Position numbers and translations under genes: made by a program. Below the pieces are notes generated by a model. It ran no database searches, was not told the origin of the DNA, and saw nothing but the letters and a program-made list of their open reading frames with translations. Positions 4,268 through 49,616 of a stretch of DNA of 64,000 nt are shown here, piece after piece. The number at the start of each line of letters is the position of its first letter. Position 1 is the stretch's first letter. Where the stretch lies: assembly GCA_035503615.1 (NCBI GenBank), contig DATJTI010000031.1, positions 27,507 through 91,506 of the forward strand, read 5' to 3'. Source of the stretch: Stellaceae bacterium. Its GTDB lineage: Bacteria > Pseudomonadota > Alphaproteobacteria > ATCC43930 > CGMCC-115725.

Positions 4268-5701
4268 TCAGCCCGGCCTGGCTTCTGGCGGTGCCGCCCC
4301 GTCGGGACGCAGCAGCACGGTGAACACCGAGCCCTCGCCGACGCGGCTGTCGATTTCGAGAAACCCGCGGTGGCGGTTGACGATGTGCTTGACGATCGCC
4401 AGCCCGAGCCCGGTGCCGCCCATCTCGCGCGAGCGCGCGGTGTCGACGCGATAGAAGCGCTCGGTCAGGCGTGACAGATGCTCGCGGGCGATGCCGGCGC
4501 CGTGATCGCGGATCGCGACCGCGACAAACCGGCTTGCCGCCGGGTCCGCTGCGGCGGGACGACGCGACATCACCGCCGCGGTGACCATGATCTCGGTGCC
4601 GGCATCGCCGTATTTGATCGCGTTGTCGAGCAGGTTCTGGAACAGCTGGGTGAGTTCGTCACGATCGCCCATCACCGCGGCAAGATCGGCGGGCAGGTCG
4701 AGCCGGATGCGCATGCCGCGTTCTCCGGCGTGCAATTCGAGCGCTTCGGCGAGCTGCGACAGCAGCGGTGCCAGGGCAACCCGACCCGCAGGTGCGACAT
4801 GCTCGTTGAGCTCGATGCGCGACAGCGACAGCAGATCCTCGACGAGGCGGGTCATGCGCGCCGCCTGTTCGCCCATGATCGCCAGAAAGCGCTCGCCGGC
4901 CGCCGGATCGTCGCGCGCCGGGCCCCGCAGCGTCTCGATAAACCCGCTCAACGTGGCCAGCGGCGTGCGCAGTTCGTGGCTGGCATTGGCGACGAAGTCG
5001 GCGCGCATCTGCTCAGCGCGCTTCAGCTCGGTAACGTCGTGCAACGTCAGCAATGCGACCGCACCCTCGGGCGAGGGCGTCGCGATGCGGGCGAAGCGGG
5101 CACGCAGCTGGCGTTCGAGCGGGATCGCCAGGGCGAATTCGACAACGCGCGCCGCCTCGCCGCGCAGCACCGCATCGGCCGCCGCCAGGACCGACGGATT
5201 GCGCAGCGCCGTCGCAAGGTCGCGCGGCGGCGTGAGCGCGCCGACAAAGCCGGCGGCCGCGGCGTTGGCGCCGACGATCCGCCGGTGCCGGTCGATCAGG
5301 ATCAGCGGGTCGGGCACGGCGGCGATGATCGCCTCGGCCGCGACCAGGCGCGCCTCGCTGCCCTGCAGCCGCTCCCGCCAGCTGCGTGCCAGCCGCAGAA
5401 CGCTAAGCCGGGTCTCGTCCGCCGATCGGCGCGGGTCGAGCCCGAGCCAGCGGCGCGGCAGCACGCCTTCGGCAGCCTCGGTCGCGATCTGGTCGACGGT
5501 TTCGTGCACCGCCGCGGCCGCGAGGACGAAGCGGCCGATCACCACCGCGGTCAGGACCAGGATCGCGAGGCCGCCGGCGAGTGCGGTTTGCGCCGCCAGC
5601 GCGCGACCCATGGCCAGGATCGCGAGCACGATCAGCCCGGGTGCGGCGGCCGGCAGAGTCAGCGCCAGCACCTGGCAGACGCTCCCGGCCCGGCGCATCA
5701 T
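4268..5701 (-). CDS. phoR: Phosphate regulon sensor histidine kinase PhoR
   Basis: N-terminal TM segments and a PAS-like region are present, with the H-box FVANASHELRTPLATLSGF, N-box LLDNAIKYG and G-box GGTGLGLAIVKHIV. The gene is adjacent to pst. Confidence 0.9.
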   Translation of the reverse strand: MMRRAGSVCQVLALTLPAAAPGLIVLAILAMGRALAAQTALAGGLAILVLTAVVIGRFVLAAAAVHETVDQIATEAAEGVLPRRWLGLDPRRSADETRLSVLRLARSWRERLQGSEARLVAAEAIIAAVPDPLILIDRHRRIVGANAAAAGFVGALTPPRDLATALRNPSVLAAADAVLRGEAARVVEFALAIPLERQLRARFARIATPSPEGAVALLTLHDVTELKRAEQMRADFVANASHELRTPLATLSGFIETLRGPARDDPAAGERFLAIMGEQAARMTRLVEDLLSLSRIELNEHVAPAGRVALAPLLSQLAEALELHAGERGMRIRLDLPADLAAVMGDRDELTQLFQNLLDNAIKYGDAGTEIMVTAAVMSRRPAAADPAASRFVAVAIRDHGAGIAREHLSRLTERFYRVDTARSREMGGTGLGLAIVKHIVNRHRGFLEIDSRVGEGSVFTVLLRPDGAAPPEARPG

Positions 5702-5731
5702 GCTGCCGCGACCGAAGGAGTCGCCTCGCGC

Positions 5732-7999
<2,268 letters not shown>

Positions 8000-44217: not shown

Positions 44218-44622
44218 ATGATCGGGCGTCTCAACCATGTGGCGATCGTGGTGCCGGACCTCGCGGCCGCCGCCGCAATCTATCGCGATGGGCTCGGCGC
44301 CCGCGTCTCGGAACCGCACGCTTTGCCGGCGCATGGCGTGCAGGTCGTCTTTGTCGAATTGCCCAATACCCGGATCGAACTGCTAGAACCGTTGGGTGAC
44401 ACCTCGCCGGTGCGGGCATTTCTCGAGCGCAACCCATCGGGCGGGATGCACCACCTCTGCTATGAGGTTGCCGATATTCGGGCCGCGCGCGATCGCCTGG
44501 TCGCTGCGGGCGCGCGAGTGCTGGGTGATGGCGAGCCGCGGCCGGGCGCCCACGACAAGCCGGTGCTGTTTCTGCACCCCAAGGATTTCTGCGGCACCCT
44601 GATCGAGCTCGAACAGGTGTGA
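44218..44622 (+). CDS. mce: Methylmalonyl-CoA epimerase (VOC/glyoxalase fold)
   Basis: The product reads MIGRLNHVAIVVPDL...IELLEPLG..SPV..FL......GMHHLCYEV.D.....LHPKDFCGTLIELEQ, 134 aa. Confidence 0.85.
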   Translation: MIGRLNHVAIVVPDLAAAAAIYRDGLGARVSEPHALPAHGVQVVFVELPNTRIELLEPLGDTSPVRAFLERNPSGGMHHLCYEVADIRAARDRLVAAGARVLGDGEPRPGAHDKPVLFLHPKDFCGTLIELEQV

Positions 44623-44698
44623 GCCGGATTGAACGACAACGCGGGGGGCGCCGGCGCTGCGATCCGAGGAGGTGGCGGGCAGTGCGGGCCTGTCGGAG

Positions 44699-45244
44699 AT
44701 GAGCGCCGCCTATTGCCGAATGGCGCCGACCCATCCGGTGCATGCCGCCTATCACGACCGCGAATACGGTTTTCCCTCGCGCGACGAGGGGGTGCTGTTC
44801 GAACGGCTGCTGCTGGAGATCAATCAGGCCGGTCTCTCATGGCTGACGATTCTCAACAAGCGCGCGGCGTTTCGCGCCGCTTACGCCGATTTTTCGGTCG
44901 ACCGCGTCGCCGGCTTCACGACCGACGATCTCGATCGCCTGCTCGCCGATCCAGGGATCGTTCGCAATCGGCTCAAGATTGAGGCTGGGATCGCCAATGC
45001 CCGCCGCATCATCGAATTGCGCCAAACCAGCGGGTCGTTCGCCGGCTGGCTCGACCAGCATCACCCGCGCTCGCTCGAAGCCTGGACCCGGCTGTTCCGA
45101 CAAACCTTCCGATTTACCGGTGGGCAGATCGTCAACGAATTCTTGATCAGTCTCGGCTATCTACCGGGTGCGCACGAACCGGATTGCCCGGTTTTCACCC
45201 GGATTGCAGAGCTGGCGCCGCCCTGGTTGGGCGGCCTCGAGTGA
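44699..45244 (+). CDS. tag: DNA-3-methyladenine glycosylase I
   Basis: The product includes AYHDREYGFP..DE..LFE.L.LE..QAGLSW.TIL.KR..FR.A...F and IVRNRLKIEA...NA. The start is ATG 44699 or 44672. Confidence 0.88.
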   Translation: MSAAYCRMAPTHPVHAAYHDREYGFPSRDEGVLFERLLLEINQAGLSWLTILNKRAAFRAAYADFSVDRVAGFTTDDLDRLLADPGIVRNRLKIEAGIANARRIIELRQTSGSFAGWLDQHHPRSLEAWTRLFRQTFRFTGGQIVNEFLISLGYLPGAHEPDCPVFTRIAELAPPWLGGLE

Positions 45245-45477
45245 TCCGGGTCGAGCTTTGGCGAGAGCGGGTTTGACCGTGCCGCACTTTCCTGTTACCC
45301 AGGCGGCCGATCGGGGTTCGGCGCGTCAACCGGGGGGTTGGCCACGCGTCGCGAGAGGAAATCAGGCAGTCGGGTGTAACCAAGGCGCGGCTTTACGTCG
45401 GTCGTGCCTAGCTGCGCCCGGCCGCCATTGACAACGAGGCGGGGTTTCGGCCGGTCATCGACAACGAGGCGGAATTG

Positions 45478-45888
45478 ATGTCGCTGCGAGAGAAATATCG
45501 AGGGGTTCTGTCGGGCATGGTTCCGCTCGGAGTGGCTGGTGTTGCGCTGCTGCTCGGCACCGCCGCACCCGCTGCCGCAGACCAGGAGATGAGTGCAGCA
45601 TCGGTGCGCGAAACTGCTTCGGTTCCGGTCTCGGCACGTCTCGCTGCCATTCGCGACGCCGTTTCCGATGTCGGCAGGACCGCAGCGAACTCGGCCGCAG
45701 CAAACTCGGCCGCAGCAAACTCGGATGAAGGGGCGACCCGGCTCGCCTGGTGGGCATGGCGCAATGGTGGCGGTGGCTGGCGCAATGGCGGTGGCGCCTG
45801 GGGCAATGGCGGTGCCCGTGCCTGGGGCAATGGCGGTGCCCGTGCCTGGGGCAATGGCGGCTGGCACAATTATTGGCGAAATTTCTGA
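45478..45888 (+). CDS. Precursor peptide A1: signal-peptide-bearing Trp/Asn/Gly-repeat protein (rSAM-associated Gly-rich-repeat, GrrA/OscA-like)
   Basis: 136 aa. GAGGCGG lies 6 nt before the ATG. The product has an n-h-c signal-like N-terminus, the leader box RLAAIRDAVSDV, and the core WWAWRNGGGGWRNGGGAWGNGGARAWGNGGARAWGNGGWHNYWRNF with 7 W-x-N triads. A paralog and an rSAM/SPASM gene lie directly downstream. Confidence 0.8.
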   Translation: MSLREKYRGVLSGMVPLGVAGVALLLGTAAPAAADQEMSAASVRETASVPVSARLAAIRDAVSDVGRTAANSAAANSAAANSDEGATRLAWWAWRNGGGGWRNGGGAWGNGGARAWGNGGARAWGNGGWHNYWRNF

Positions 45889-46045
45889 GCGGTCGTTGCC
45901 GGAGCATGGTGAATAACCCGTCGCCGGTGCCCGTTTCTTCGCGAGCGGCGGCGGCATCGGCGAAATGGCGGATGCGTGTTGGCCGACGGGCCGAGCATTT
46001 CGGTCGGAAAAGAGGCGGCGAAGCGTCGACGATGAGGTGGCTGTG

Positions 46046-46426
46046 ATGTCGCTGCGGCAGAAGTATCTGGAGATCCTGTCGGCGATTGTGCCGGCCGGGG
46101 TGGTTGGCGTCTCGCTGCTGCTCGGCACGACGGCGCCTGGCGCTGCCAGCGAGGAGCCGGCTGCTGCCGAGCCTCTGGCCTCGCATCAAATGCGGGTGGC
46201 CGAGCGCCTCGCGGCGATCCGCGACGCGGTGTCGGATGTGGCCGCGAATGCCGCGGCCAAGGCTGGTGATGCTGCTGAGCCCGACAGCAAGGACCTGCGG
46301 CTCGCCTGGGGCAATTGGTGGCGCAACGGCGGCTGGGGCTATCGGCCGTGGGGCGGCTGGGGCTGGCCAAACTGGAACAATTGGCACAACTGGCACAATT
46401 GGAACAACTGGTGGCGGAACTGGTAG
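46046..46426 (+). CDS. Precursor peptide A2: paralog of A1 with an extremely Trp-rich core
   Basis: 126 aa with the same MSLR.KY start, signal-like segment and RLAAIRDAVSDV box. Between the paralogs, 8 of the 12 box codons differ, and all the differences are synonymous. The core is WGNWWRNGGWGYRPWGGWGWPNWNNWHNWHNWNNWWRNW, with 8 W-x-N triads. Confidence 0.82.
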   Translation: MSLRQKYLEILSAIVPAGVVGVSLLLGTTAPGAASEEPAAAEPLASHQMRVAERLAAIRDAVSDVAANAAAKAGDAAEPDSKDLRLAWGNWWRNGGWGYRPWGGWGWPNWNNWHNWHNWNNWWRNW

Positions 46427-46457
46427 GCGGGCGACCGCGCAAGGATGGGAATGCCCC

Positions 46458-47684
46458 GTGCCGGTGATTGACCTGCTGGTGGTCCAGCCGACCCCGTTCT
46501 GCAACATCGATTGCAAATATTGCTATCTGCCCGGCCGGAATTCAAAAGCGGTGGTGACGCCACAGACCCTCTGCAACCTGTTTACGCAGGTCTTCGCCTC
46601 GGGCTGGCTCGATGACCGGCTGTCGGTGGTGTGGCATGCCGGCGAGCCGATGGTGCTGCCGATCTCGTTCTACCGCGAGGCCTTCGCCATGATCGAGGCC
46701 CTGCGCCCGCGTGACGTGACGGTGGTCCACTCGTTCCAGACCAACGGCACCTTGATCGACGAGGCGTGGTGCCGCTTTTTTGCCGAGGTGCCGGTCAGTC
46801 TCGGGGTCAGCATCGACGGCCCGCAACATCTGCACGACCGCAACCGGGTGACGCGCGCCGGCCGCGGCACCTTTGAGCGCACGATCGCCGGCATCCGATT
46901 GCTGCGCAGCCATGCCGTGCCGTTCCACGTGATCTCGGTGCTGTCATCGGCCAGCATGGCCGTCCCGGCAGAGATGTTCGACTTCTACGTCGCCGAAGGG
47001 ATCGAGGAGGTCTGCTTCAACGTCGAGGAAAGCGAGGGCGACCACGTCTCCGAAGCGTTCGGCGAGGAGGGCGTCGAGACCGCCTTTGCCCGGTTCCTGG
47101 GTGAATTCTGGCACCTGTCGGCGGCCTCGCCCGGCAAGATCACGTTTCTGCGCGAGATCGAGCAAGCGCTGCAGCAGGTGATCCGCCCGAAGGAAGCGGT
47201 GTTCCGCAACCAGCTGGTCGAGCCGTTCGCGATCACCAGCATGGATTGGGCCGGCAACATCTCGACCTTTTCACCCGAATTGCTCGGTCTGAAGAACCCG
47301 GCCTATGACGATTTCATCCTCGGCAACATCAATCACGACACTTTGACCGATCTGCCGCACCGCCCGGCTTTCGCCCGGATGCTCGCCGATATCGATGCCG
47401 GTGTGGCGATGTGCCGCGAGGCTTGCGAGTATTTTTCGGTGTGCGGCGGCGGCGAGCCGGTCAACAAGCTCGCCGAGAACGGCACCTTTGCCAGCACCGA
47501 GACGACCTATTGCCGGCTGACCCGAATGCGGGTGACCGATCTCGTGCTCAACGCGCTGGAGCGGGCGCCAGTTGCGGCGCTCGATCCGGCCAGGATCGTG
47601 CTGGCCGAGATCGTGCCGGCCGAGATCGTACACGACACGATGTCGGCGCGCCGACCGCCTGAGGGTGTCGGCGCCGGTGGATAA
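46458..47684 (+). CDS. Radical SAM/SPASM peptide maturase (cyclophane-forming GrrM/OscB-like)
   Basis: The rSAM motif is QPTPFCNIDCKYCYLP (CxxxCxxC). The C-terminal SPASM-type Cys cluster is CREACEYFSVCGGGEP...TYC. The start lies 31 nt after the A2 stop. GTG 46458 (or 46464) was chosen because the ORF-track start at 46086 overlaps A2 in another frame. Confidence 0.85.
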   Translation: MPVIDLLVVQPTPFCNIDCKYCYLPGRNSKAVVTPQTLCNLFTQVFASGWLDDRLSVVWHAGEPMVLPISFYREAFAMIEALRPRDVTVVHSFQTNGTLIDEAWCRFFAEVPVSLGVSIDGPQHLHDRNRVTRAGRGTFERTIAGIRLLRSHAVPFHVISVLSSASMAVPAEMFDFYVAEGIEEVCFNVEESEGDHVSEAFGEEGVETAFARFLGEFWHLSAASPGKITFLREIEQALQQVIRPKEAVFRNQLVEPFAITSMDWAGNISTFSPELLGLKNPAYDDFILGNINHDTLTDLPHRPAFARMLADIDAGVAMCREACEYFSVCGGGEPVNKLAENGTFASTETTYCRLTRMRVTDLVLNALERAPVAALDPARIVLAEIVPAEIVHDTMSARRPPEGVGAGG

Positions 47685-47707
47685 GTAGCGCGGAAGCGGA
47701 GGACAGG

Positions 47708-48460
47708 ATGACCAAAACGTTGCGCTGGCTGGGCTTGCTCGCGCTCGGTGCCGCTCTGCAGACCGGGTTTGCGACGCTGGCCTCGGCCCAGTCGGGCGCC
47801 GGCGCTCCCGCCAGCATGTCGGCCGCCAACGCCAGCGGCCCGGAAGAGGGCTATGGTCCCGGCGCCGACCAGTCGGGCTTTGCCGAGCCGACCGAGATCG
47901 AGCCATCGACCGAACTGCCGGTGCTCTATGTCACCAGCGTCGAGATCATGCGCACGCAGACCCAGCCGCAGCTCGACATCGTGCGGGTGACGGGCCTGAC
48001 CGGAGCCCAAGGGTGGAGTTCACCGGAACTGGTTCCGACGTTTGTCGGCAAGCCGCTCGACGGCATCCTCGATTTGCAGTTCATCGCGACAATGCCGCTG
48101 CAGACCGAGGAGGCGACCGGCTTTGTCCCGATCAGTGCGGTGTTCCCGCTCGAAGCCGGTCATGATTTCAAGGGAGTGCGGGTGCGGGCCTCCGAGAATG
48201 CGATCGAGGTTGACCAGATCCCCGGCACCAAATCGATCAAGATCAACGTCAGCGGCTGCAAGGACTGTGTCGGCAAGAAATTTGCCGAGCGCGGTCAGGC
48301 CGCCCCGGGGACCCCCGGTGTGGTGCGCCAGGAAGATCTACCGAAGACGCTGCGCTGGATCCCGGTCAACCACGGCATCCGGGGTATCACCCACAATCCG
48401 AACCGGCTCAATCTGATGCTCGGGGCGGACAACACGATTCTTGCTGCCTATTGGGAGTAG
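47708..48460 (+). CDS. Secreted protein with a C-terminal peptidase-inhibitor-I78-like domain
   Basis: The signal peptide is MTKTLRWLGLLALGAALQTGFATLASAQ. A low-complexity linker and a beta-rich middle region follow. The C-terminus, CKDCVGKKF......LPKTLRWIPVNHGIRGITHNPNRLNLMLGADNTILAAYWE, fits the I78 pattern (C..C.G...R.I.P....T.D....RLN...D....I). The gene starts 23 nt after the rSAM stop. Confidence 0.5.
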   Translation: MTKTLRWLGLLALGAALQTGFATLASAQSGAGAPASMSAANASGPEEGYGPGADQSGFAEPTEIEPSTELPVLYVTSVEIMRTQTQPQLDIVRVTGLTGAQGWSSPELVPTFVGKPLDGILDLQFIATMPLQTEEATGFVPISAVFPLEAGHDFKGVRVRASENAIEVDQIPGTKSIKINVSGCKDCVGKKFAERGQAAPGTPGVVRQEDLPKTLRWIPVNHGIRGITHNPNRLNLMLGADNTILAAYWE

Positions 48461-49167
48461 CTCGCGACGACCGGACTGCTCGGCTCGGCGGTGGCCAACC
48501 GTGTCGAGCGCCGGCGGCTGCGCGCCGTGCGCTCGGACTGGTGGTGCTCTGCGGAATCGCCGGGTCCGGCCTGATCGTTGCCGTCACGCTCGGCTTCCTC
48601 GCCGGAGGCACGGCGCAGGCCAGCTCGCTTGGTGTGGCAGGCTCGGATGGTGTGACAGGCTCGCTTGTCGTCACCAACAGGGTTGCGCTCGATCGGGTGG
48701 CGCGTGCCGTCCTGGAGGCCGAGTCGAGCGACGGTGCCGATCCCGCCATGTGGCGGCCCGATCCTGACGGCCCGCAGGGGCCGATGCAGGTTTCCGCCGC
48801 GGCCGCCGCCGATGTCGGCAGTGGCGATCGCTTCGACCCGGCCGAAAATTTGCTGCTCGGCCGCGCCTATCTGGCCCGGCTCTATCGGCACTATGCCAAT
48901 TGGGCCGACGCGGTCGCGGCTTATGATTGGGGTCCCGCCCACATGGATAACTGGATCGAAAGCGGCCGGCCGATCGGCAAGCTGCCGCAAGCGGTGGCGT
49001 TCTATCGCATGCGCGTGCTGACGGGTGCGACCGCTTCCGGCGGCCATTTCGGCGTGGTCGGGCATCTGCAGCCGCGCCGGTCGCTGGCCGACCGCCGTCA
49101 TCCGAGCCGAGACAGCATCGCCGTCGAACAGATCTACGCCGCAATCATGGCCAAGGGCCGGCCTTGA
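48451..49167 (+). CDS. Lytic transglycosylase (SLT) domain protein with an N-terminal membrane anchor
   Basis: The TM/signal anchor is LGLVVLCGIAGSGLIVAVTLGFLAGG. The SLT blocks are VLEAESS (catalytic Glu), GPQGPMQVS and AVAAYDWGP. The TTG start overlaps the upstream stop, so the start is uncertain. Confidence 0.65.
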   Translation: MGVARDDRTARLGGGQPCRAPAAARRALGLVVLCGIAGSGLIVAVTLGFLAGGTAQASSLGVAGSDGVTGSLVVTNRVALDRVARAVLEAESSDGADPAMWRPDPDGPQGPMQVSAAAAADVGSGDRFDPAENLLLGRAYLARLYRHYANWADAVAAYDWGPAHMDNWIESGRPIGKLPQAVAFYRMRVLTGATASGGHFGVVGHLQPRRSLADRRHPSRDSIAVEQIYAAIMAKGRP

Positions 49168-49262
49168 ACCGGGTTGCGTCGCGGCGGGATGATCGCGCGA
49201 GGATCGGCGGTGTCGGGTGTGCAAGCGACGATCCAGGATCCAGTCAGCACGCCGCCAGCCTG

Positions 49263-49616
49263 ATGATGGGGGAAGCGATGACCAGCCTGGTCAAGACACT
49301 GCGCTCGCTCGGCAACCGACTGCAGGCCGGTGCCAGCATATGCCAGCTTTATGGTGAACCGGTCGAACAGGGTGGCCGCACGATCGTCCCGGTCGCGCGG
49401 ATGCGCTACGGATTTGGCGCCGGTGGCGGCAGCAAACATGGCGGCGGCGGCGCGGGAATCGATTTTCGTCCGGTCGGGCTGATCGAGATCAGCGACGATG
49501 GCACCCGGTTCGTTCCGCTGCACCGGCCGCTGCCGCTGATCCTCGCCCTGCTCGGCGGGTTGCTGCTCGGCTATAATCTCGGCCGCCGCGCCGGTCCTCG
49601 TGATCGCGGGAGGTAA
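49263..49616 (+). CDS. GerW/YtfJ-family protein
   Basis: The product includes LYGEPVEQGGRTIVPVARMRYGFGAGGGSKHGGGGAGIDFRPVGLIEISDDGTRFVPL, which matches the YtfJ/GerW signature, and ends in a C-terminal TM segment. The start is ATG 49263 or 49278. Confidence 0.65.
   Translation: MMGEAMTSLVKTLRSLGNRLQAGASICQLYGEPVEQGGRTIVPVARMRYGFGAGGGSKHGGGGAGIDFRPVGLIEISDDGTRFVPLHRPLPLILALLGGLLLGYNLGRRAGPRDRGR

What the first reader, a model, noticed from the sequence alone, without database searches (positions are those of the whole stretch)
45478..47684. Two tandem Trp/Asn/Gly-repeat precursor peptides plus a radical SAM/SPASM maturase: a putative poly-cyclophane RiPP locus
Seen in the sequence:
- Two paralogous small genes (136 and 126 aa) have C-terminal thirds built almost entirely of W-x-N triads: 7 in A1 (WRN, WRN, WGN, WGN, WGN, WHN, WRN) and 8 in A2.
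- Both peptides end in WRN(F/W).
- 31 nt downstream is a ~408-aa ORF with the rSAM motif CNIDCKYC and a C-terminal SPASM-like Cys cluster (CREACEYFSVCGGG...TYC).

Established knowledge: rSAM/SPASM maturases of the XyeB / GrrM / OscB / FxsB group form a C-C bond between the ring of an aromatic residue and C-beta of the residue two positions later, giving three-residue cyclophanes (triceptides). Gly-rich-repeat GrrA-type proteins are their cognate substrates.

Inference:
- Every W-x-N would be a Trp-to-Asn crosslink site, so each peptide could carry 7-8 cyclophanes.
- The product of this locus, its two-precursor layout and its extreme Trp density are, as far as I can tell, uncharacterised.
- No RRE-only protein, leader peptidase or ABC exporter is visible nearby.
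Basis: partly seen in the sequence, partly recalled or inferred. Interest (0 to 1): 0.92.

Follow-up and report, generated by a model that had tools for sequence, protein, structure and literature searches.

The report
GrrA/GrrM Trp-Asn cyclophane peptide locus

Summary
Two paralogous small genes carry 7 and 8 W-x-N triads, and a 408-aa radical SAM gene starts 31 nt downstream.

The enzyme scores 414.8 bits on NCBIfam TIGR04261 "GrrM/OscB cyclophane-forming maturase" (cutoff 310). It fails the sulfatase-maturase, AmcB, XyeB, FxsB, DarE and DynA models. A1 reaches the GrrA/OscA1 model exactly at its cutoff. OscB is reported to link Trp-C7 to Asn/Asp-Cbeta, so the proposed chemistry is the family's known chemistry. 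NCBI already names the enzyme's homologues in Stellaceae MAGs; the precursors remain "hypothetical".

New here:
- The locus is conserved in about 80 soil genomes, mostly Stellaceae, plus Acidobacteriota.
- Both precursors have signal-peptide-like N-termini.
- A 250-aa secreted protein (47708-48460) follows the enzyme in 78 of 80 loci and in unrelated neighbourhoods. Its C-terminal domain resembles peptidase inhibitor I78/CI-2.
- The SPASM region is degenerate, with four conserved C-terminal Cys.

Verdict: a new member of a known kind, of moderate interest. The accessory protein and export route are the parts worth following.

The parts
45478..45888 (+). grrA-type precursor A1 (136 aa). Residues 1-34 are signal-peptide-like (net positive n-region, hydrophobic stretch, AAA|DQE). 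Residues 54-65 are the conserved RLAAIRDAVSDV motif. Residues 88-136 are a Gly-spaced core with 7 W-x-N triads.
   Evidence: TIGR04260 GrrA/OscA1 scores 31 bits, equal to the cutoff. It is 57% identical to A2 over the first ~100 aa. An A1-type paralogue is present in about half of the related loci.
46046..46426 (+). Precursor A2 (126 aa). It has the same signal-like N-terminus and the same RLAAIRDAVSDV motif (residues 54-65). Its core (residues 84-126) has 8 W-x-N triads, five of them back-to-back (WPNWNNWHNWHNWNN), and ends in WRNW.
   Evidence: It has 754 homologues. This precursor type lies next to the enzyme in nearly all related loci. The C-terminus is WRNW in 106 of 120 homologues. It is not recognised by TIGR04260.
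46458..47684 (+). GrrM/OscB-family radical SAM cyclophane synthase (408 aa, GTG start). CX3CX2C lies at C15/C19/C22, so there is no N-terminal RRE domain. The SPASM-like region is degenerate (C319, C323, C329, C352), and C105 and C186 are also conserved.
   Evidence: TIGR04261 scores 414.8 bits against a cutoff of 310. Pfam finds Radical_SAM only. Cys conservation holds in 63-65 of 65 relatives. PDB sequence matches are anSME 4k36-39 and the triceptide synthase ChlB 9gm3.
47708..48460 (+). Conserved accessory gene 'P250' (250 aa). It has a signal peptide (..ASA|QS), a low-complexity linker, a beta-rich domain (~68-176), an invariant CxxC (C184, C187), and a C-terminal ~65-aa domain resembling peptidase inhibitor I78 / potato inhibitor I.
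   Evidence: It lies directly downstream of the enzyme in 78 of 80 loci, including Acidobacteriota. The same holds in four further unrelated neighbourhoods found from distant P250 relatives. It has no Pfam, NCBIfam or PDB sequence hit. The AF2 model has pLDDT 85.6. Foldseek top hits are CI-2 and AFUEI (3w0d_A: prob 0.98, target-normalised TM 0.60). Four of ten distant relatives give sub-threshold Pfam I78 hits.
48544..49167 (+). Lytic transglycosylase (SLT domain) gene. Its membership of the system is doubtful.
   Evidence: Pfam SLT E = 9.6e-10. It lies downstream of P250 in only 37 of 80 loci, all Stellaceae-type, and is absent from the distant cassettes.

Best explanation
This is a GrrA/GrrM (OscA/OscB) triceptide operon, probably transcribed as A1-A2-grrM-P250.

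Proposed mechanism:
1. In the cytoplasm the radical SAM enzyme reductively cleaves SAM.
2. The 5'-deoxyadenosyl radical abstracts a Cbeta hydrogen from the Asn at position i+2 of each W-x-N triad.
3. The carbon radical adds to the indole of the Trp at position i (C7 in the characterised OscB).
4. Re-aromatisation, with the electron passed to an auxiliary Fe-S cluster, leaves a three-residue cyclophane and a loss of 2 Da per ring.

Up to 7 rings on A1 and 8 on A2 would result. The enzyme has no RRE domain, so it presumably recognises the conserved RLAAIRxAVS helix, and perhaps the unusually conserved N-terminal hydrophobic segment.

The precursors carry Sec-type signal peptides. The modified chains are therefore probably exported by Sec and cut by signal peptidase I, which would explain the absence of a dedicated exporter or peptidase. 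In the periplasm they would meet the co-conserved secreted protein P250. Its I78/CI-2-like domain suggests protease inhibition or peptide binding.

What is shown: family membership of the enzyme, homology and conservation of the precursors, and linkage of the three genes. What is inferred: ring chemistry and ring number, Sec export, and the role of P250.
For: - Enzyme family: (TIGR04261, 414.8 against 310; all other named rSAM models below cutoff). One search shows NCBI naming homologues GrrM/OscB.
- Chemistry of the family: PMC11002830.
- Precursors: A1 reaches TIGR04260, and 10 of 37 related precursors hit it, best E = 2e-14. A1 and A2 are paralogues. W and N of the triads are nearly invariant across phyla, and R54, L55 and R59 of the leader motif are invariant.
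- Linkage: precursor-rSAM-P250 occurs in 78 of 80 loci. This includes about 25 loci that have lost the RNase J/epimerase/Tag neighbours, and Acidobacteriota loci. It also occurs in L082, L084-L088, found independently from 30-43%-identical P250 relatives.
- Operon: gaps between genes are 157, 31 and 23 nt with no terminator between them.
- Signal peptides: net positive n-region, 15-aa Kyte-Doolittle mean of 2.0-2.2 from residue 10, and AxA-type c-region.
- No peptidase or ABC exporter lies within +/-8 kb.
- P250 fold.
Against: - No experimental data exist for this clade.
- A2-type precursors are not recognised by the GrrA model.
- The SPASM region lacks the cysteines that bind auxiliary cluster I in anSME, and Pfam SPASM is not detected. 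Electron handling, or even regiochemistry, could therefore differ from OscB.
- No signal-peptide predictor was available. The N-terminus could be an uncleaved membrane anchor or simply part of the leader.
- The I78/CI-2 similarity of P250 is weak by E-value (about 0.1 in Foldseek; Pfam hits are below the gathering score and found only in distant relatives). An hhalign comparison with CI-2 was negative.
- The most distant P250-family members stand alone without an rSAM.
Confidence: 0.78

Rival explanations
1. The enzyme belongs to the GrrM family, but its chemistry or extent of modification differs. Only some triads might be crosslinked. The linkage might use another indole carbon, or be a C-N or C-O bond. 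The non-Asn triads (WGY, WGG, WGW in A2) might also be substrates.
For: The SPASM region is degenerate, with only four C-terminal Cys. A2-type cores with back-to-back triads fall outside the GrrA model. Related enzymes (DynA, DarE, XyeB) make other linkages and still score 82-147 bits. A paper reports hierarchical or partial cyclisation for other triceptide synthases (PMC12912966).
Against: The match to TIGR04261 is end to end and well above cutoff. Asn at position i+2 is the dominant and conserved partner: 964 of about 1,560 Trp in the last 50 residues of 120 homologues have N at i+2.
Confidence: 0.15
2. The products are not released peptides. They are membrane-anchored or envelope-resident proteins of about 100 aa whose uncleaved N-terminal helix tethers a rigid Trp-rich tail. 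They would serve the producer's own envelope rather than act as an antibiotic.
For: The N-terminal hydrophobic segment is far more conserved than ordinary signal peptides: LPxGxxG[IV]S is kept from Alphaproteobacteria to Acidobacteriota. The locus sits in a stable chromosomal position between housekeeping genes in most Stellaceae, which suggests vertical inheritance. The partner P250, and in some loci an SLT, are periplasmic.
Against: AxA-like motifs follow the hydrophobic stretch. One paper asserts that characterised triceptides are proteolytically released before the first ring (PMC12912966).
Confidence: 0.15
3. The rSAM is a non-RiPP enzyme, such as an anaerobic sulfatase maturase, and the small ORFs are unrelated secreted Gly/Trp-rich proteins or not genes at all.
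For: The best solved-structure match by sequence is anSME. Long antisense ORFs overlap the region, as expected at 66% GC.
Against: anSME models score 91-165 bits against cutoffs of 349-484. No sulfatase gene lies nearby. The precursors are conserved at protein level in hundreds of sequences and always adjoin the enzyme.
Confidence: 0.02

Closest known systems
OscA/OscB = GRRM system (TIGR04260/TIGR04261; Nguyen et al. 2020 Nat Chem, as summarised in PMC11002830)
   Same: The enzyme passes the family HMM. The precursor is of the same kind: about 125 aa, a hydrophobic N-terminus, and a Gly-rich repetitive C-terminus with aromatic-x-Asn motifs. W-x-N is the reported OscB substrate motif, and each precursor carries many rings.
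   Different: The organisms here are soil Alphaproteobacteria (Stellaceae) and Acidobacteriota rather than cyanobacteria. A second precursor type (A2) has contiguous triads and falls outside TIGR04260. A 250-aa secreted partner gene is co-conserved. I could not check whether cyanobacterial Osc clusters also carry that gene.
XYE system / xenorceptides (XyeA/XncA-XyeB/XncB; bioRxiv 10.1101/2024.12.16.628070)
   Same: It is also a triceptide system: three-residue cyclophanes made by an rSAM, Trp-containing motifs and a conserved C-terminal aromatic residue.
   Different: XyeB scores only 82 bits against a cutoff of 450. XYE clusters encode an aspartic protease, an HlyD protein and a transporter, none of which is present here. 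XYE peptides are short (12-mers with 3 rings).
Darobactin/dynobactin maturases DarE and DynA
   Same: They are anSME-like rSAMs that make Trp-centred crosslinks, including Trp-Asn in dynobactin (PMC10288494). Their products end in an aromatic residue.
   Different: Their HMM scores are far below cutoff (DynA 146.6 against 450; DarE 91.6 against 650). The precursors are different, and there are no repeated triads.
Bufferins (MNIO-modified RiPPs with Sec signal peptides; PMC12452194)
   Same: The precursors carry Sec-type signal peptides instead of classical leaders, are modified in the cytoplasm and then exported. No dedicated exporter is encoded.
   Different: The enzyme class (MNIO) is unrelated, the chemistry is Cys-based and the function is copper binding. 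This is an analogy of logistics only.
Peptidase inhibitor I78 (AFUEI) / potato inhibitor I (CI-2), compared with P250
   Same: The C-terminal ~65 residues of the P250 model superpose on AFUEI and CI-2. Distant family members give sub-threshold Pfam I78 hits.
   Different: The window protein itself gives no Pfam hit. It has an additional N-terminal beta domain with no structural match. No inhibitory activity has been shown.

Membership tests
GrrM/OscB cyclophane-forming rSAM maturase (TIGR04261) | Score above the curated NCBIfam cutoff over the full-length model | tested here: met
   414.8 bits against a cutoff of 310; residues 9-369 align to profile positions 1-363 of 363.
GrrM/OscB cyclophane-forming rSAM maturase (TIGR04261) | CX3CX2C radical SAM cluster motif | tested here: met
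   C15, C19 and C22 are invariant in 65 of 65 relatives. Pfam Radical_SAM E = 3.5e-14.
GrrM/OscB cyclophane-forming rSAM maturase (TIGR04261) | SPASM domain with cysteines for two auxiliary Fe-S clusters | tested here: inconclusive
   Only C319, C323, C329 and C352 are conserved in the C-terminal region, with no Cys at the anSME auxiliary-cluster-I positions. Pfam SPASM is absent in the window protein and sub-threshold (20.5 and 18.9 bits against 21.5) in two relatives. Whether this is typical of the whole family was not checked.
GrrM/OscB cyclophane-forming rSAM maturase (TIGR04261) | Encoded next to a GrrA-type precursor with aromatic-x-Asn motifs | tested here: met
   A1 and A2 lie immediately upstream. 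The arrangement is conserved in 78 of 80 loci.
GrrM/OscB cyclophane-forming rSAM maturase (TIGR04261) | Forms a Trp(C7)-Asn(Cbeta) C-C bond with loss of 2 Da per triad | not testable with these tools
   This needs co-expression, HR-MS/MS and NMR. The chemistry is taken from PMC11002830.
GrrA/OscA1 precursor (TIGR04260) | Score at or above the curated cutoff | tested here: inconclusive
   A1 scores 31 bits against a cutoff of 31 (met, marginally). A2 gives no hit. Of 37 related precursors, 10 hit, with a best E-value of 2e-14. A2 is nevertheless a clear paralogue of A1 (57% identity, E = 4e-22).
Anaerobic sulfatase maturase (TIGR03942 / PRK13745 / PRK13758) | HMM score above cutoff and a sulfatase substrate gene nearby | tested here: not met
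   164.7 against 349; 114 against 484; 91 against 441. No sulfatase lies within +/-8 kb.
Other cyclophane rSAM families (AmcB, XyeB, FxsB, YhhB, DarE, DynA) | HMM score above the curated cutoff | tested here: not met
   AmcB 302 against 425; DynA 147 against 450; YhhB 130 against 445; DarE 92 against 650; FxsB 85 against 370; XyeB 82 against 450.
Sec-dependent signal peptide (precursors and P250) | Positive n-region, hydrophobic h-region and an AxA cleavage motif | tested here: inconclusive
   The features are present by inspection and by hydropathy. No dedicated predictor and no experiment was available.
Peptidase inhibitor I78 (PF11720), tested on P250 | Pfam gathering score, or a clear fold match | tested here: inconclusive
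   The window protein gives no hit. Four of ten distant relatives score 17-22 bits against 23.6. Foldseek gives AFUEI 3w0d_A at prob 0.98 and target-normalised TM 0.60, but E = 0.14. hhalign against CI-2 was negative.

The most novel reading that the evidence does not exclude
The conserved cassette (signal-peptide precursor(s), GrrM, P250) may not make a diffusible antibiotic. It may make Sec-exported, roughly 100-residue envelope proteins. Runs of back-to-back i-to-i+2 cyclophanes would form a pre-organised rigid beta-strand ending in a conserved aromatic residue (WRNW). That resembles the beta-signal mimicry of darobactin and the xenorceptides, so the strand could dock by beta-augmentation onto BamA or another beta-barrel or protease. 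P250, with its I78/CI-2-like domain, would be the dedicated periplasmic partner, acting as carrier, immunity protein or protease shield. This would be the first radical-SAM RiPP family with an obligatory Sec route and a periplasmic partner protein.
Probability: 0.15. Interest if true: 0.75.

Novelty: new member of a known kind. Interest (0 to 1): 0.42.

Why it matters
For the locus as reported, the value is modest. It extends a characterised RiPP class (GRRM-type triceptides) into a large clade of uncultured soil Alphaproteobacteria and Acidobacteriota. It supplies hundreds of natural precursor variants with 5-12 rings each, including cores with five or six contiguous rings that would test how processive the enzyme is.

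- The precursors look Sec-exported, a feature described as rare among RiPPs (PMC12452194).
- A secreted protein family without annotation is tightly linked to the enzyme across phyla.

In the literature I could access, no native function of GRRM-type triceptides is described. A dedicated periplasmic partner gives a concrete experimental handle on that question.

Tried and rejected
- Sulfatase-maturase reading: rejected on HMM scores and on the absence of a sulfatase gene.
- First AF2 run of P250 with 40 close homologues: pLDDT 49, unusable. It was rescued by adding 25-53%-identical representatives.
- Profile search of P250 against PDB sequences and per-member Pfam scans of close homologues: nothing.
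The inhibitor-like assignment therefore rests only on Foldseek and on sub-threshold Pfam hits in distant relatives.
- BFVD fold search: nothing meaningful.
- Rfam scan of 44600-49300: only a chance miRNA-model hit.
- Promoter and terminator scan: no promoter-like site, and one weak terminator-like site inside the rSAM gene.
- The 17-nt direct repeat upstream of A1: its GACAACGAGG core matches only 2 of the 80 related loci (L002, L069), so it is probably not a regulatory element.
- Literature: searches for GrrM, TIGR04261 and AmcB returned nothing relevant, and the primary paper (Nat Chem 2020) is not held. The chemistry is therefore cited second-hand from a review.
- SLT as a system component: rejected as probably mere synteny (37 of 80 loci, absent from distant cassettes).
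Full report
**Observation**

- A1 (45478-45888, 136 aa) has seven W-x-N triads and ends in WRNF.
- A2 (46046-46426, 126 aa) has eight triads, five of them contiguous (WPN WNN WHN WHN WNN), and ends in WRNW.
- The 408-aa ORF (46458-47684, GTG start) begins 31 nt after A2. It carries CNIDCKYC at residues 15-22.

The triad pattern is not a by-product of composition. Shuffling the cores gives 1.25 +/- 0.95 triads against 7 for A1, and 3.24 +/- 1.31 against 8 for A2. Both small ORFs have a GAGG ribosome-binding site 7-8 nt upstream of the ATG. A1 and A2 are paralogues, 57% identical over the first ~100 residues. Nothing similar occurs elsewhere in the window.

**Identity of the enzyme**

Against NCBIfam the protein scores 414.8 bits on TIGR04261, 'cyclophane-forming radical SAM/SPASM peptide maturase GrrM/OscB' (cutoff 310), aligned end to end. 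Every other named model is below its cutoff:

| Model | Score (bits) | Cutoff (bits) |
|---|---|---|
| AmcB | 302 | 425 |
| Anaerobic sulfatase maturase | 165 | 349 |
| DynA | 147 | 450 |
| YhhB | 130 | 445 |
| DarE | 92 | 650 |
| FxsB | 85 | 370 |
| XyeB | 82 | 450 |

NCBI's pipeline already gives the GrrM/OscB name to 76-92%-identical proteins in Stellaceae MAGs. A review states that OscB (IPR026357) was shown by co-expression and NMR to form Trp-C7 to Asn/Asp-Cbeta and Phe-C4 to Asn-Cbeta three-residue cyclophanes (PMC11002830). The primary paper is not in the held library.

**Precursors**

A1 reaches the GrrA/OscA1 model TIGR04260 exactly at its cutoff (31 bits), aligned over residues 22-133. 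A2 does not hit it. Of 37 related precursors, 10 hit the model, with a best E-value of 2e-14. I did not record which members hit, but the two window paralogues fit a split in which the Gly-spaced 'WRNGG' type (A1) is recognised and the contiguous-triad type (A2) is not.

A2 has 754 homologues, and every one that carries a source name is called 'hypothetical protein'. In 120 of them:
- there are 6-10 triads per protein (median 8);
- the last 50 residues are 28% Trp, 23% Asn and 16% Gly;
- the C-terminus is WRNW in 106 of 120;
- the motif [ED][RQ]L[AST]A[IV]RxA is present in 105 of 120.

An alignment spanning Alphaproteobacteria, Acidobacteriota and other lineages shows three conserved blocks. 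The first is an N-terminal hydrophobic segment with LPxGxxG[IV]S. The second is the RLxxIRxAV helix, with R54, L55 and R59 invariant. The third is the triads, where W and N are nearly invariant and x varies.

**Distribution and gene linkage**

The window is a soil metagenome contig. A scan of one genome per species found 80 related loci. Nearly all are Stellaceae or unclassified Alphaproteobacteria MAGs with 69-92% identical enzymes. There are also two Acidobacteriota loci (55%) and one Hyphomicrobiales locus (47%).

Precursor number per locus is 1 in 37 loci, 2 in 40, 3 in one and 0 in two. Of the two without a precursor, L066 is truncated and L080 is the divergent Hyphomicrobiales locus.

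The main new finding concerns the 250-aa ORF directly downstream (47708-48460, 23 nt after the enzyme's stop). It is present in the same position in 78 of 80 loci. This includes about 25 loci where the upstream neighbours (RNase J, methylmalonyl-CoA epimerase-like, Tag) are gone, and both Acidobacteriota loci. The two exceptions are L065, a contig end, and L080.

I then tested the linkage from the other side. Distant P250 relatives (30-43% identity) were taken from an all-against-library search. In L082, L084/L085, L086/L087 and L088 each lies immediately after a GrrM-like rSAM. That rSAM is itself preceded by a precursor with a signal-like N-terminus and 7-12 W-x-N triads. Their neighbourhoods are unrelated: an integrase in one, DnaB/Alr/MlaE in another, TamB and an S9 peptidase in a third.

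The most distant family members (33% identity or less), and a group with five tandem copies of the beta domain, stand alone without an rSAM. The fold family is therefore broader than the cassette.

**What P250 is**

It has no Pfam, NCBIfam or PDB sequence match, even with a profile. Its 1,016 close homologues carry no informative name. The sequence shows a signal peptide (..ASA|QS), an Ala/Gly/Pro-rich linker, an invariant CxxC (C184, C187) and an invariant C-terminal AAYWE.

AlphaFold2 with only close homologues failed (pLDDT 49). With a diverse alignment it gave pLDDT 85.6, and above 95 for residues 70-250. Foldseek against the PDB returns, for the C-terminal ~65 residues, a consistent set of chymotrypsin inhibitor 2 entries and the Aspergillus elastase inhibitor AFUEI (I78 family). 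For 3w0d_A the values are probability 0.98, target-normalised TM 0.60 and 65 aligned columns, but E-values are only about 0.1.

Four of ten distant family members give sub-threshold Pfam Inhibitor_I78 hits at the same place (17-22 bits against 23.6). An hhalign comparison with CI-2 alone was negative. The N-terminal beta domain has no structural match. I regard the inhibitor-like fold as probable and the function as open.

**Enzyme details**

The radical SAM motif starts at residue 15, so there is no N-terminal RRE domain. Conserved cysteines are C15/C19/C22, C105, C186, C319, C323, C329 and C352 (63-65 of 65 relatives).

In the weak C-terminal alignment to anSME, the query stretch MCREACEYFSVCGGG pairs with the anSME stretch ECK-KCKWFRLCKGG. 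Cysteines at the anSME auxiliary-cluster-I positions, as I recall those positions, are absent. Pfam SPASM is not detected in the window protein and is just below threshold in two relatives. 'SPASM-like' is therefore only partly right: the sequence offers ligands for one C-terminal auxiliary cluster, plus two conserved Cys in the barrel.

**Mechanistic model**

Shown:
- family membership of the enzyme;
- homology and strong purifying selection on W and N of the triads;
- three-gene linkage;
- tight spacing of the genes without intervening terminators.

Inferred:
- The enzyme installs Trp-Asn C-C crosslinks at up to 7 + 8 triads.
- It recognises the RLAAIR helix.
- The modified chains are exported by Sec. 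Both precursors have a net-positive n-region, a hydrophobic stretch (Kyte-Doolittle mean 2.0-2.2 over 15 residues) and an AxA-type motif before residue 35.

Sec export would explain why no exporter or peptidase lies within +/-8 kb. Sec signal peptides on RiPP precursors are described as rare, with the bufferins as the studied example (PMC12452194). Three-residue rings leave the chain essentially linear, so translocation through SecYEG after modification is plausible; this is inference. P250 would then meet the product in the periplasm.

**Function**

The function is unknown. Two observations point in different directions.
- The stable chromosomal position of the locus across Stellaceae suggests a physiological role in the producer.
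- Triceptides of the XYE family with a conserved aromatic C-terminus are reported to target BamA (bioRxiv 10.1101/2024.12.16.628070). Contiguous i-to-i+2 crosslinks ending in WRNW would make a rigid beta-strand-like segment.

I give the beta-strand-mimic and dedicated-partner reading about 15%.

**Verdict**

The system is a new member of a known, experimentally characterised kind whose enzyme is already auto-annotated, so the original interest score of 0.92 is too high. The residual interest of about 0.4 lies in three things: the overlooked accessory protein, the probable Sec route, and the large natural library of poly-cyclophane cores.

Noticed in passing
window 47708-48460 (+): An unannotated 250-aa secreted protein is co-conserved directly downstream of the rSAM in 78 of 80 loci and across phyla. 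It is a two-domain model with an I78/CI-2-like C-terminal domain and an invariant CxxC.
   Followed up: yes
window 46458-47684, residues 255-352 of the protein: The SPASM region is degenerate. Only four conserved C-terminal Cys are present (C319, C323, C329, C352), with none at the anSME auxiliary-cluster-I positions, and Pfam SPASM is not detected. Two further conserved Cys (C105, C186) lie in the barrel.
   Followed up: partly
window 45426-45442 and 45456-45472; similar sequence upstream of A2 at about 46026-46042: A 17-nt direct repeat, CAT(T/C)GACAACGAGGCGG, occurs twice 30 nt apart just upstream of A1, and its second copy contains the RBS. Its GACAACGAGG core matches only 2 of the 80 related loci (L002, L069), so it is probably a trace of the A1/A2 duplication rather than an operator.
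   Followed up: partly
window 45680-45724: Three tandem 15-nt units encode (A)ANSA repeats in the linker of A1, between the leader motif and the core. The core itself is built from 21-24-nt repeats, which suggests expansion by slippage.
   Followed up: no
window 48544-49167 (+): An SLT-domain lytic transglycosylase lies downstream of P250 in 37 of 80 loci (Stellaceae only). A YtfJ-like gene follows at 49278-49616. This is probably synteny rather than membership of the system.
   Followed up: partly
L080 (Hyphomicrobiales MAG JAJFHO010000019.1), 4875-6155: A GrrM-like rSAM (47% identity, same Cys pattern) has no W-x-N precursor and no P250 homologue nearby. It presumably has a different substrate.
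   Followed up: no
L083 2468-4594 (protein P0370), also P0381, P0390 and P0396: Proteins of 565-708 aa carry five tandem copies of the P250 beta domain. P0370 is not next to an rSAM; a Fic-domain gene lies upstream. The domain is therefore a reusable module of unknown function.
   Followed up: partly
L019 4049-4501 and L071 4168-4461: A1-type paralogues appear frameshifted or truncated in some MAGs. This could be pseudogenisation or an assembly error in the repetitive core.
   Followed up: no
L044 3449-4970: One Stellaceae MAG carries three tandem precursors, one of them with nine mostly WGN triads and a divergent C-terminus (FWRNL).
   Followed up: no
window 45455-46516 (-) and 45295-46128 (-): Long antisense ORFs (353 and 277 aa) overlap A1 and A2. 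This is expected at 66% GC, and they have no support as genes.
   Followed up: no
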